Part shown: positions 52,983-55,380 of the stretch, one piece after another
Layout of the letters: each line of letters starts with the position of its first letter
Numbering within the stretch: the stretch's first letter is position 1
Assembly (NCBI RefSeq): GCF_024502345.1
Contig: NZ_JALDNN010000001.1
From: Escherichia coli
GTDB lineage: Bacteria > Pseudomonadota > Gammaproteobacteria > Enterobacterales > Enterobacteriaceae
Direction: 5' to 3' (one strand)
DNA length: 64,000 bases
Program-made: the position numbers and the translations under genes
The notes under the pieces: model-generated
Seen by the model: only the letters and a program-made list of their open reading frames with translations
Databases searched by the model: none
What the model was told of the DNA's origin: nothing

Positions 52983-53300
52983 TTACTGTGCCACTACAAG
53001 CCGCCTTATATTCACCAGCAGGTTTTTCATCAGTGAAATGGCGCGTCCCACAGAGAGAATTTCAATAAACAGGTTAAGGTCGTTTTGTTTCAGGTAGTTC
53101 AGGAAGTCTGGCTCACTGAGACTTTCCCCTGCCTCCTCGTAAAAGCAGGCAATCGCTTCCATGTTATTCATGTAGGTGCTGATTGCGGCGTACTCGTGTC
53201 CTTCCATCTGTTCAAGGATGACCCTGACAGACTGCATCCGGTCGGTCAGTTTCGCATGTATGTCTGCATATTTAGCCTGACGGGGATTTATTTCACTCAT
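52983..53300 (-). CDS. Hypothetical 105-aa protein downstream of the chemoreceptor gene
   Basis: ORF track; same strand as the MCP gene with a 99-bp gap; no recognisable motif. Confidence 0.4.
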   Translation of the reverse strand: MSEINPRQAKYADIHAKLTDRMQSVRVILEQMEGHEYAAISTYMNNMEAIACFYEEAGESLSEPDFLNYLKQNDLNLFIEILSVGRAISLMKNLLVNIRRLVVAQ

Positions 53301-53399
53301 TATTACTGTCGCCTGTAAATAACCGGCACAGTGCGAACACCATGCCGGGAGATTATGGCTGACAAAACGGGAACGACAGGATCCCGCTGTTGTCGGGGG

Positions 53400-55082
53400 T
53401 CAGAAGGTTTCCCAGTTCTCGCTGGCGTGTTGTTCCGTTTCACGAACGGACTTTACCGCTTTAACCTTACTCTGCGGGCTGGTGTTGCTGATTGTCGGTA
53501 CTATGGTATTTTTTCGTTCAGCATCGCGTTTTTTATTATCACGGAGACGAAATACGCTCACCTTCTCCTGCAGAATCCGTGACTGATTCTGCAACGAAGC
53601 GGCAGTGGCTGCAGACTGTTCCACCAGAGCTGCATTTTGTTGGGTGGTGCTGTCTATCTGGCCCATGGCGCTGTTAATCTGGGCAATACCATCTCCCTGC
53701 TCACGACTGGCCTTGGCTATTTCGTCAATCAGCCCTTCCATGCTCTGGACGTTACTGATGATATCCTCCATTCCCCTGTCTGCTTTTTCAACCAGGGTAC
53801 GGCCGGATGCAATGCGGGAAACGGAGTCATCAATGAGCTCTTTTATTTCCCGCGCGGCAGAAGCACTGCGCTGAGCCAGATTACGAACCTCTCCGGCCAC
53901 AACCGCAAATCCACGGCCGGACTCGCCGGCGCGTGCGGCTTCCACGGCAGCATTAAGCGCGAGAATGTTGGTCTGGAAGGCAATCCCGTCGATGACCTGG
54001 ATGATGGCTGTCATTTCAGACGAGGTGTCGTAAATCTCCTGCATCCGGGAAGACACCTCACTCATGACCACTCCATTCTGTTTCACAATGGCCGTTGTTT
54101 CTGTCACAAACTGGTAAACCTGTGCTGTATTGCCGGCAGTATTGTTTATGGTGGCCGTCAGTTGTTCCAGAGTGGCCGCCGTCTGTTCCACACCGGCAGC
54201 CTGCTCTTCGGTGCGGGCTGACAGGTCTGTATTACCACTGCTGATTTCTGCTGCAGTCAGCGCAATATTGTCCGCTCCCTGACGTACTTCCCGGACGGTG
54301 TTACTCAGACTCCCGCACATATCACGCAGTGCCTGCATCAGTTGCCCCAGCTGGTCCTGTGAGTCCACTTTAATCTCCACACACAGGTTACCTTCCGCCA
54401 CTTCCCGGGCAATCCGGACGGCTGAAATCAACGGACTGGTAATGCTTCTGGTGATCAGCCATGCCAGCACACCTCCCAGAAGAAGCGCCATACACCCAGT
54501 GATGATCAGTGTCAGTATGGCTGCCGTACCATTATCAGCGATAACTTCACCCGCTTTATCTATGCTTGTTTTTTCGTATTCCACCAGTGCCTGCAGACTG
54601 GCCATGTAGTCATTTATGATCGGTAATTGCTGTGACTCAATGAAGTGGTTCAGGGCTTCACGGTCCCCCTGCTCACTGATCTGAAGAGCTTTTACCAGGG
54701 TATCTGCATACACCTGACGCTTTTCACCAATGGTTTTCAGCAGCTTAATACCCTGCTCTGAAGTAAGCTCCCTGTTAAATTTATCCTGCAGTATATCCAC
54801 GCGAGCACGGGTTTTCTCTATCCGCTGCTGTGCATATGTCCTGATATCCGGGTCCCCCGACGTCAGCAGAACCAGTCCAAGCGCACCGTTTGATTCAATA
54901 CCGGTCTGCCATTCATTCGCCATACGCTCCTGCAGAAGATAATTATTCATCACGCGATCGGTGGAAGTGAGCATAGAGTTCAGGTACCCCACTCCGGTCA
55001 CTGTCATGATCATGATAAGAACCAGAATTAGGCTGAAGCTGCCAGCCAGCCTGATACCCACACTAAAGTCTTTGATTTTCAT
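53400..55082 (-). CDS. Methyl-accepting chemotaxis protein (orphan, island-borne)
   Basis: 560-aa ORF: TM1, periplasmic domain, TM2, HAMP, conserved MCP signalling region ([51 protein letters not shown]). Confidence 0.85.
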   Translation of the reverse strand: [560 protein letters not shown]

Positions 55083-55380
55083 TTTATTACCCGTGAATGA
55101 AGCTGGTTATTTCGGACCCCGGTGTCCCTGACAAATAACTGGTGCCTCCAGACTTATTTATGAGGAATCATATTTTGATTAACGAGATCTGTTATCGGTA
55201 TCAGTGTGCCTGAATGGAGTATGTCAGACACGACCACTTAATACCCCGAAGCGTCCTGCCAAAAAAGACCAGACGGTGAGGGCTGGTCTGAAATCTGACA
55301 ATGTCTATGGGGTCTACCGTTGCGTAGAGGGCTGTCACAACGTTAATAAGATTATCGGCAACAGTCCGGTAAACTTTAAC

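What the first reader, a model, noticed from the sequence alone, without database searches (positions are those of the whole stretch)
52983..55380. Orphan chemoreceptor plus small partner gene carried as cargo between IS fragments
A 560-aa methyl-accepting chemotaxis protein with a ~170-aa periplasmic sensing domain, and a 105-aa ORF immediately downstream, sit between the IS3-family fragment and the truncated IS26. The MCP promoter region (55083-55380) abuts the IS26 inverted repeat, so expression may be driven or altered by the IS. Its ligand specificity is unknown.
Basis: partly seen in the sequence, partly recalled or inferred. Interest (0 to 1): 0.5.

Follow-up and report, generated by a model that had tools for sequence, protein, structure and literature searches.

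The report
Mobile chemoreceptor with conserved small partner
An intact, horizontally acquired chemotaxis receptor gene that keeps its own flagellar (sigma-28) promoter sits between insertion-sequence scars in a decayed E. coli genomic island. The small gene behind it belongs to an uncharacterised protein family that almost always lies directly downstream of chemoreceptor genes in Enterobacterales.

Summary
A 560-aa MCP (53400-55082, minus strand) and a 105-aa ORF (52983-53300, minus strand) lie between an IS3-family left end (53001) and the IS26 left end (55381).

The MCP is intact. It has a 4HB_MCP_1 sensor, HAMP, a Tsr-length signalling domain, E/Q pairs at the methylation sites and a C-terminal NWETF. 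It is only 34-40% identical to Tsr, Tar, Tap and Trg.

It is rare mobile cargo, present in 16 of 5426 complete E. coli genomes and on 38 plasmids, mostly Citrobacter.

The IS-driven expression idea is not supported. A perfect sigma-28 promoter (TAAAGTTT-N11-GCCGATAA, 55352-55378) lies 2 bp inside the IS26 junction and is orthologous to the promoter of the chromosomal homologues.

The small ORF is a real partner. In 18 of 19 independent contexts its homologues lie 0-113 nt downstream of an MCP gene. It is under purifying selection and is predicted with confidence to be a three-helix bundle. It matches no Pfam, NCBIfam or PDB family. Here an IS clipped its last ~15 codons.

Ligand and partner function remain unknown. 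Overall this is an ordinary accessory chemoreceptor plus an unrecognised MCP-associated protein family.

The parts
53400..55082 (-). Intact 560-aa methyl-accepting chemotaxis protein. Order of parts: TM1, ~150-aa 4HB_MCP_1 periplasmic sensor, TM2, HAMP, Tsr-length (36-heptad) signalling domain, ~40-aa linker, NWETF.
   Evidence: 100% identical DNA is annotated as MCP WP_061351512.1 in NZ_CP109924.
52983..53300 (-). Small partner gene (105 aa as found). Codons 1-~100 (53002-53300) are native. The last 5 codons and the stop (52983-53001) come from the IS3-family left end. Native length is 116-121 aa.
   Evidence: dN/dS 0.09-0.41; AF2 pLDDT 90, three long helices.
55352..55378 (-). Perfect sigma-28 (FliA) class-3 promoter TAAAGTTT-N11-GCCGATAA, 2 bp from the IS26 end and 269 nt upstream of the MCP ATG.
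   Evidence: only match in the window, 0 mismatches; ~3e-5 expected by chance. The K-12 tar promoter is the same exact consensus and tsr has 1 mismatch. Orthologous in Trabulsiella and C. farmeri homologues.
55083..55351 (-). Long leader. It is about 130 nt longer than in the chromosomal orthologues. The extra segment holds a 7-bp hairpin AGACCAG/CTGGTCT plus a T run at 55261-55289 (terminator-like, unexplained).
53313..53348 (-). Intercistronic 11-bp G+C-rich hairpin plus T-rich tail between the MCP stop and the small-gene start. It is terminator- or attenuator-like and conserved in all cassettes examined.
   Evidence: scan; alignment; 96% of cells paired; 1 compensatory and several wobble-to-Watson-Crick changes.
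53400..53420 (-). Recombination joint. DNA homology to the TarH-type MCP/small-gene cassettes begins at the NWETF codons. Downstream DNA is 91-99% identical, while the MCP bodies are only ~40% identical as proteins.
52719..53001 (-). IS3-family (IS911/ISCfr6-like) fragment: left inverted repeat TGTAGTGGCACAGTAAATTTGGCCACC plus a truncated orfA (52684-52962 as an ORF).
55381..56030 (+). IS26 left end with a 3'-truncated tnpA, transcribed away from the MCP.
   Evidence: The same IS26/MCP junction occurs in L001, L003, L004 and L006.

Best explanation
The region is a two-gene chemoreceptor module of foreign origin, trapped between IS scars in a decayed pheV-associated island next to glcA.

Gene 1 is a complete transmembrane chemoreceptor. 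Transcription most likely starts at its own sigma-28 promoter, so the gene is switched on with the host's late flagellar and chemotaxis genes. The receptor has the same cytoplasmic length as Tsr and Tar, E/Q pairs at the methylation sites, and the NWETF tail that tethers CheR and CheB. It should therefore join the host's mixed receptor arrays and signal through CheW/CheA, adding a new but unknown ligand specificity through its four-helix-bundle sensor. This is inferred.

Gene 2 encodes a cytoplasmic three-helix-bundle protein of ~116 aa, clipped here to 100 native residues. Its family is almost always encoded immediately behind an MCP gene. Most likely it binds or modulates its cognate receptor; this is inferred, and the mechanism is unknown. 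A conserved hairpin with a T run between the two genes suggests the partner is made in smaller amounts, by read-through.

IS26 and an IS3-family element moved and trimmed the module but do not drive it.
For: Shown:
- Domain architecture.
- Gap-free alignment of HAMP and signalling domain with Tsr, Tar and Tap, conserved hairpin tip, EQ pairs at the Tsr methylation sites, and NWETF.
- Exact sigma-28 consensus, of the same quality as K-12 tar, and positionally orthologous in the homologues.
- Mobility: 16 of 5426 E. coli genomes, both chromosomal and plasmid copies; 38 plasmids of Citrobacter, Escherichia, Klebsiella, Enterobacter and Serratia at 98-100% identity, nearly always beside IS26.
- The nearest chromosomal relatives are only ~60% identical: C. 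farmeri, Trabulsiella, Pantoea.
- Partner synteny: an MCP gene or MCP pseudogene ends 0-113 nt upstream in 18 of 19 contexts. These include Trabulsiella, where the MCP is the 61% homologue of this one.
- dN/dS is 0.09-0.41.
- Confident AF2 model.
- Conserved intercistronic hairpin.
Against: - There is no expression or chemotaxis data.
- The leader is 269 nt, against 31 nt for tsr and tar and ~140 nt in the orthologues. It contains a terminator-like hairpin, so sigma-28 transcripts might stop before the MCP.
- Many plasmid copies are truncated or sit in non-motile Klebsiella, so selection for function is not evident everywhere.
- The C. farmeri and Pantoea orthologues lack the small gene, so the partner is not obligatory for this receptor clade.
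- One family member (L032) is not next to an MCP but next to an EAL phosphodiesterase.
- The partner here lacks its native C-terminal ~15 residues.
Confidence: 0.7

Rival explanations
1. Inert passenger DNA. The module hitch-hiked with IS26 and IS3-family activity and has no role in this host. It is on its way to decay like its neighbours.
For: - The surroundings are a graveyard: sslE cut to ~110 codons, IS30, IS3 and IS26 fragments, integrase and autotransporter fragments, and only a 49-nt piece of pheV.
- Many plasmid copies of the MCP are truncated.
- It occurs in non-motile Klebsiella.
- It is rare in E. coli.
Against: - The MCP ORF, its promoter, the methylation sites and NWETF are all intact.
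- The chromosomal E. coli copies are 100% identical.
- The small gene family is under purifying selection.
Confidence: 0.25
2. One reading: IS26 supplies or alters the promoter of the MCP.
For: - The IS26 IR abuts the upstream region at 55381.
- IS26 ends carry an outward TTGCAA -35-like hexamer (established knowledge).
- The junction lies only 2 bp from the -35 element, so any upstream activating sequence was replaced.
Against: - No acceptable -10 lies 16-18 nt after TTGCAA (by reading).
- tnpA is divergent from the MCP.
- A perfect sigma-28 promoter is retained. The same promoter occurs in L002, where an IS3-family end, not IS26, lies 34 bp further upstream.
- The promoter is also present in the chromosomal orthologues.
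Confidence: 0.07
3. The MCP and its partner do not mediate chemotaxis. Instead they regulate motility or c-di-GMP output, like the Tls receptor-like regulator of B2 E. coli, which sequesters FlhDC.
For: - Tls shows that receptor-derived proteins can regulate flagellar genes (PMC12623472).
- Family members of the small gene repeatedly neighbour GGDEF/EAL genes, flagellin and even flhD.
- A weak full-length Pfam hit to the Bacillus flagellar activator SwrA (E 0.0044).
Against: - The MCP is full-length with a sensor, HAMP, methylation sites and NWETF, unlike the truncated Tls.
- The SwrA similarity fails profile-profile and fold tests (hhalign probability 3%; not retrieved).
Confidence: 0.1
4. 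The 105-aa ORF is a chance ORF or an unrelated gene, not a partner.
For: - No Pfam, NCBIfam or PHROG family matches.
- Its end is IS-derived.
- A terminator-like hairpin precedes it.
Against: - 31 representative relatives down to ~21% identity, with invariant N46, D74 and N93.
- dN/dS well below 1.
- AF2 pLDDT 90.
- MCP synteny in 18 of 19 contexts.
Confidence: 0.03

Closest known systems
E. coli high-abundance chemoreceptors Tsr and Tar
   Same: - Same membrane topology.
- HAMP and a signalling domain of the same length, aligned without gaps.
- Near-identical hairpin tip.
- E/Q pairs at the methylation sites.
- C-terminal NWETF.
- A sigma-28 promoter identical to the tar consensus.
   Different: - 35-36% identity overall.
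- The sensor is the 4HB_MCP_1 type, with no detectable similarity to the Tar or Tsr sensors.
- A 269-nt leader against 31 nt.
- Carried on mobile DNA and followed by a small partner gene that tsr and tar lack.
Chromosomal 4HB-type MCPs of Citrobacter farmeri, Trabulsiella odontotermitis and Pantoea (closest homologues)
   Same: - 58-61% identity over the full length.
- Same architecture.
- Sigma-28-like promoter at the orthologous place.
- NWETF, or NWVTF in Pantoea.
- Trabulsiella also has the small partner.
   Different: - Too divergent to be the donor. The donor species is not in the databases searched (only 76-80% identical short Logan contigs).
- C. farmeri and Pantoea lack the partner gene.
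TarH-type MCP plus small-gene cassettes on Salmonella and C. koseri integrative elements and on E. coli and Klebsiella plasmids (L005, L008-L016)
   Same: - Same two-gene layout, with a ~100-nt spacer and the same hairpin.
- Small gene 73-99% identical.
- MCPs end in NWETF.
- Same IS3-family element nearby.
   Different: - The MCP body is a different receptor: ~40% identity in the cytoplasmic part and an unrelated TarH sensor.
- No sigma-28 consensus was found within 700-900 nt upstream at up to 3 mismatches; the only candidates, at 4 mismatches and 516-553 nt upstream, coincide with what reads as an intrinsic terminator in the related L005 sequence.
Comamonas testosteroni MCP2201 and MCP2901 ligand-binding domains (PDB 5xub/6its, 5xua/7wrm)
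   Same: The best solved-structure sequence match to the sensor, also a four-helix bundle.
   Different: The match is only marginal (E 7e-4 to 1e-2), so no ligand can be inferred.
Tls, the Trg-derived regulator of B2-phylogroup E. coli (PMC12623472)
   Same: A non-canonical extra receptor-type gene in pathogenic E. coli that affects motility.
   Different: Tls is a truncated cytoplasmic fragment of the core gene trg. The protein here is a full-length foreign receptor.

Membership tests
Methyl-accepting chemotaxis proteins (MCP) | MCPsignal domain with the conserved hairpin tip, preceded by HAMP and two TM segments flanking a sensor | tested here: met
   Pfam MCPsignal E 5e-47, HAMP 8e-7, 4HB_MCP_1 1e-15. 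The tip ...[31 protein letters not shown].. matches Tsr, Tar and Tap except at one position, where it has Ser for Gln.
36-heptad signalling class (Tsr/Tar type) | Cytoplasmic domain aligns with Tsr and Tar without insertions or deletions | tested here: met
   No gaps from HAMP to the end of the bundle in alignment A6.
Pentapeptide-bearing, adaptation-competent receptors | C-terminal NWETF-type pentapeptide on a flexible linker, and E/Q pairs at the methylation sites | tested here: met
   The protein ends ...SENWETF after a ~40-residue linker. EQ pairs lie at the positions of Tsr 296/297, 303/304, 310/311 and 492/493. Actual methylation is not testable here.
Core E. coli chemoreceptors (Tsr, Tar, Trg, Tap) | Orthology, meaning near-identity to one of the four | tested here: not met
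   36, 35 and 34% identity to Tsr, Tar and Tap. 40% local identity to Trg. Present in only 16 of 5426 complete genomes.
Flagellar class-3 (sigma-28/FliA) regulon | TAAAGTTT-N11-GCCGATAA promoter upstream of the gene | tested here: met
   Exact match at 55352-55378. Calibrated on K-12 tar (exact) and tsr (1 mismatch). FliA dependence in vivo is not testable with these tools.
SwrA (PF17423, Bacillus swarming activator), considered for the small protein | Significant sequence or profile match and a shared fold | tested here: not met
   Pfam i-E 0.13 (window copy) and 0.0044 (P0124), with no member at E<=0.001. hhalign probability 3%. Foldseek against AFDB50 returns only family members, not SwrA.
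MCP-associated small-protein family (unnamed, defined here) | ~95-120 aa, three long helices, motif Y-x-N-N ... D ... N-[LF]-[LFM], encoded 0-113 nt downstream of an MCP gene on the same strand | tested here: met
   Window copy is 99% identical to P0121 and 83-87% to the full-length members P0123-P0128. Invariant N46, D74 and N93 are present. MCP lies upstream. The native C-terminus is replaced by IS sequence.
Composite (compound) transposon | Two copies of one IS flanking the cargo, with target-site duplications | tested here: inconclusive
   In L002 the module is flanked by inward-facing left ends of two IS3-family copies that are 93.6% identical to each other. In the window only one IS3-family fragment remains, and the other side is IS26. 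No target duplications were examined.

The most novel reading that the evidence does not exclude
The small gene defines a previously unrecognised family of cytoplasmic three-helix-bundle proteins, restricted to Enterobacterales. These would be dedicated accessory factors of individual chemoreceptors: they would bind the receptor's cytoplasmic bundle to tune its signalling, stability or array entry, or link it to c-di-GMP enzymes. They would travel with their receptor on plasmids and integrative elements, so that a foreign receptor can be plugged into a new host's chemotaxis machinery.
Probability: 0.4. Interest if true: 0.65.

Novelty: new variant of a known kind. Interest (0 to 1): 0.5.

Why it matters
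E. coli chemotaxis is the reference system for bacterial signalling, and its parts list is regarded as closed: five receptors and six Che proteins.

The region shows two things. First, a ready-to-use foreign receptor, with its own FliA promoter, a Tsr-length bundle and NWETF, circulates on resistance-type plasmids and pathogenicity islands of enteric bacteria. Second, receptors of at least two unrelated sensor types are accompanied by the same conserved small protein, which has no annotation.

If that protein acts on receptors, it would be a new class of chemotaxis accessory factor. It could be tested directly in the best tool-equipped system available, using FRET kinase assays and receptor-less strains.

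If it does not, the finding is only one more accessory MCP carried as IS cargo.

Tried and rejected
- SwrA homology of the small protein. The Pfam hit was weak but full-length. I retrieved SwrA sequences and ran a profile-profile comparison. Probability was 3% and Foldseek did not retrieve SwrA, so I rejected it.
- NCBIfam and PHROGs gave no family.
- Ligand prediction from the sensor. There is only a marginal match to Comamonas MCP2201/2901, so no inference is possible.
- IS26 hybrid promoter. No -10 lies at the right spacing. The single sigma-70-like site (55167-55195) is no more than chance gives.
- Rfam on the region. Only a sub-threshold isrC hit, inside the IS3-family fragment.
- A scan of 100,044 representative genomes with the family profile failed for the wide alignment. 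With the narrower one it returned only Trabulsiella, because the method needs near-exact peptide words.
- Borziak et al. 2013, on chemoreceptor gain and loss in E. coli, is not held in the library. I could not check whether this receptor is among the acquired ones they list.
- Literature searches for plasmid-borne MCPs found only unrelated MCPs.
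Full report
**1. Observation**

The six-frame ORF list shows a 560-aa ORF at 53400..55082 and a 105-aa ORF at 52983..53300. Both are on the minus strand and they are 99 nt apart.

- Pfam assigns 4HB_MCP_1 (residues 6-172), HAMP (209-255) and MCPsignal (328-479) to the larger ORF.
- Reading the minus strand puts the IS26 terminal repeat (GGCACTGTTGCAAA on the plus strand) exactly at 55381.
- IS26 is cut near 56030 and followed by an IS3 orfB remnant.
- On the left, homology to an IS3-family element (IS911/ISCfr6-like) begins at 53001 with the left repeat TGTAGTGGCACAGTAAATTTGGCCACC and runs to about 52719. An IS30 fragment follows, then the first ~110 codons of sslE/yghJ next to glcA.

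**2. The setting**

The region is a decayed pheV-type island.

- In E. coli C 236-04A (NZ_CP109924; 100% identical over the finding) the order is pheV, integrase, IS1, autotransporter, IS3, an IS3-family remnant, IS30, transposase remnant, small ORF, MCP, IS26, the antirestriction/yafW/cbtA set, truncated sslE, glcA.
- In the window the IS26-MCP-small ORF block is inverted relative to glcA, and most neighbours are deleted.
- Only a 49-nt 3' piece of pheV remains (57744-57792). ARAGORN finds no tRNA in the window.

**3. Mobility**

- The 2.4-kb segment occurs in 16 of 5426 complete E. coli genomes, as 8 chromosomal and 12 plasmid places.
- It also occurs on 38 of 72,556 plasmids at 98-100% identity: Citrobacter 18, Escherichia 9, Klebsiella 6, Enterobacter 3, Serratia 2.
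- The same IS26 junction is present in L001, L003, L004 and L006.
- Several plasmid copies are truncated by other IS elements.
- In the Enterobacter roggenkampii plasmid L002, 34 more native base pairs precede the promoter. They end at an inward-facing left end of a second IS3-family copy. The module there is bracketed by two inverted IS3-family ends, like a compound transposon.
- The donor species is not identified. The closest full-length relatives are short anonymous contigs at 76-80% identity, then C. farmeri, Trabulsiella, Pantoea and Erwinia chromosomal genes at 58-61%.

**4. The receptor**

- Aligned with K-12 Tsr, Tar and Tap, the protein is 36, 35 and 34% identical. Against Trg it is 40% identical locally.
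- From HAMP to the end of the helical bundle there are no gaps, so it belongs to the same length class as the host receptors.
- The hairpin tip is near-identical, differing at a single residue.
- EQ pairs occupy the positions of the Tsr methylation sites.
- The protein ends in NWETF on a ~40-residue linker. In Tsr and Tar this motif tethers CheR and CheB (established knowledge). Tap, which lacks it, serves as an internal control in the same alignment.
- The sensor shows no similarity to the solved Tar or Tsr sensors. Its best PDB match is the Comamonas MCP2201 four-helix bundle at E 7e-4, which is too weak to suggest a ligand.

The gene is not a copy of a core receptor and it is not disabled.

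**5. The promoter**

- Two base pairs inside the IS26 junction, the minus strand reads TAAAGTTT-ACCGGACTGTT-GCCGATAA (55378-55352). This is the exact sigma-28 consensus.
- It is the only match in the window, even when 3 mismatches are allowed. An exact 16-base match is expected about 3e-5 times in 64 kb.
- With the same scan, the K-12 tar promoter is an exact match and tsr has one mismatch.
- The Trabulsiella and C. farmeri homologues carry TAAAGTAT/TAAAGTCC-N11-GCCGATAG at the aligned position. The promoter is therefore ancestral to this receptor clade and not created by the IS.
- IS26 tnpA is divergent from the MCP, and I found no -10 hexamer at 16-18 nt from the outward TTGCAA of the IR.

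The IS-driven expression idea is therefore not supported. The IS insertion did remove everything upstream of the -35 element.

One oddity remains. The leader is 269 nt, about 130 nt longer than in the orthologues. The extra part contains a 7-bp hairpin followed by a T run (55261-55289). I could not decide whether this attenuates transcription. The minimum-energy fold of the whole leader (z = -2.15) uses these bases differently.

**6. The small gene**

- It matches nothing in Pfam, NCBIfam or PHROGs.
- Close relatives (73-99% identity) are 116-121 aa long.
- The window copy diverges after residue ~100, exactly where the IS3-family left end begins. Its last five codons and its stop are IS sequence, and about 15 poorly conserved native residues are lost.
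- A profile search of 1.84 billion representatives finds only 31 relatives, all 90-120 aa apart from a few fragments and one long repetitive protein. N46, D74 and N93 are invariant and Q31, Y37 and N45 nearly so.
- dN/dS between cassettes is 0.09-0.41.
- With the 31-sequence alignment AlphaFold gives pLDDT 90 and pTM 0.75, with three long helices plus a short one.
- Foldseek against AFDB50 returns only uncharacterised proteins of Citrobacter, Salmonella, Pantoea, Pectobacterium, Rahnella, Erwinia and Musicola.
- A weak full-length Pfam hit to Bacillus SwrA (E 0.0044) did not survive profile-profile comparison (probability 3%).

**7. The partnership**

I examined 19 independent genomic contexts of family members. 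In 18, an MCP gene ends 0-113 nt upstream on the same strand. In E. billingiae L036 the upstream gene is a frameshifted MCP.

| Context | What lies upstream |
|---|---|
| The window type | the MCP described here |
| Klebsiella plasmid L005 | MCP |
| C. koseri and Salmonella integrative elements | TarH-type MCPs |
| E. coli conjugative-plasmid contigs | MCP |
| Trabulsiella chromosome | the 61% homologue of this MCP |
| Metagenome contig | upstream ORF ends ...TNWETF |
| Three further NCBI assemblies | MCP |
| Plasmids of P. vagans, P. ananatis, Rahnella, P. stewartii, Kosakonia, Pantoea sp. At-9b, E. billingiae | MCP (frameshifted in E. billingiae L036) |

- In three loci the two genes overlap by 4-8 nt.
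- The one exception (E. billingiae L032) has an EAL phosphodiesterase downstream instead.
- GGDEF/EAL genes, flagellin and flhD recur nearby.
- The upstream receptors have unrelated sensors (TarH or 4HB). One lacks the pentapeptide, so the partner is not tied to one sensor type or to NWETF.
- The chromosomal orthologues in C. farmeri and Pantoea lack the partner.

**8. How this particular pair arose**

DNA homology between the window and all TarH-type cassettes starts at 53420, within the NWETF codons. It continues at 91-99% identity through the spacer and the small gene up to the IS end. The MCP proteins themselves are only ~40% identical, and only in the cytoplasmic part.

The 4HB receptor body was therefore joined to a pre-existing spacer-plus-partner segment by recombination in the one short stretch that both receptor genes share. 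An alternative is that a tandem receptor was deleted.

The spacer holds an 11-bp G+C-rich hairpin with a T-rich tail at 53313-53348. It is kept in every cassette, including the otherwise diverged Trabulsiella spacer. 96% of cells are paired, with one compensatory change and several wobble-to-Watson-Crick changes. The sample is too small for the shuffling control to be significant.

**9. Interpretation**

Shown:
- an intact foreign MCP with all sequence features needed to use the host's Che machinery;
- an ancestral sigma-28 promoter;
- IS-bounded mobility;
- a conserved, selected small gene that accompanies MCP genes.

Inferred:
- FliA-dependent expression;
- incorporation into host receptor arrays;
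- a new ligand specificity;
- a receptor-directed role for the small protein, made at a lower level by read-through of the spacer hairpin.

The main rival is that the module is a silent passenger in this host. The Tls precedent (PMC12623472) keeps open a regulatory role rather than a chemotactic one.

**10. Verdict**

The receptor is a new member of a well-known kind and by itself is of modest interest. The added value is the unannotated small-protein family with near-obligate MCP synteny, which is directly testable in E. coli.

- Overall interest: 0.5.
- Novelty: new variant of a known kind.

Noticed in passing
window 57744-57792 (-), with 56940-57548 (-): Only the 3' 49 nt of tRNA-Phe (pheV) are present, followed by a fragment of a P4-type integrase gene. 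ARAGORN finds no tRNA in the whole window. This looks like an att-type repeat at the junction of tandem or rearranged islands.
   Followed up: partly
window 52185-~52500 (+): The lipoprotein metalloprotease gene sslE/yghJ next to glcA is cut to about its first 110 codons by an IS30 fragment. In the related strain C 236-04A about 2.3 kb of it survive.
   Followed up: partly
window 55215-55345 (-): The MCP leader has a ~130-nt segment that is absent from the chromosomal orthologues. It contains a 7-bp hairpin plus a T run (55261-55289) just downstream of the sigma-28 promoter. It might be an attenuator, a small sigma-28-dependent RNA, or an insertion scar.
   Followed up: partly
window 53400-53420 (-); L005, L008-L016: Two unrelated MCP bodies (4HB type and TarH type) are joined to the same downstream segment, exactly at the shared NWETF codons. 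This suggests receptor swapping by recombination in that short conserved stretch.
   Followed up: yes
L021, L030, L032, L035 (related loci): Members of the small-protein family repeatedly neighbour GGDEF/EAL (c-di-GMP) genes and plasmid-borne flagellin genes. In L032 the small gene precedes an EAL phosphodiesterase instead of following an MCP.
   Followed up: partly
L008, L010-L013 (Salmonella and C. koseri islands): The TarH-type MCP plus small-gene cassette sits in integrative-element-like regions with TraF_2, Hha, ArdC-N and DUF1281 genes, behind long AT-rich upstream regions without a sigma-28 consensus.
   Followed up: no
window 52900-52930 (-): A sub-threshold Rfam hit to the Salmonella sRNA isrC (24 bits against a gathering score of 39, E 0.043) lies inside the IS3-family orfA fragment. 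It probably reflects IS-related sequence in the isrC seed.
   Followed up: no
window 56547-57017 (+): An N-terminal fragment of an autotransporter-like gene, with a signal peptide and Gly/Ser-rich repeats, lies between the IS3 remnant and the integrase remnant. It corresponds to the intact autotransporter of strain C 236-04A.
   Followed up: no
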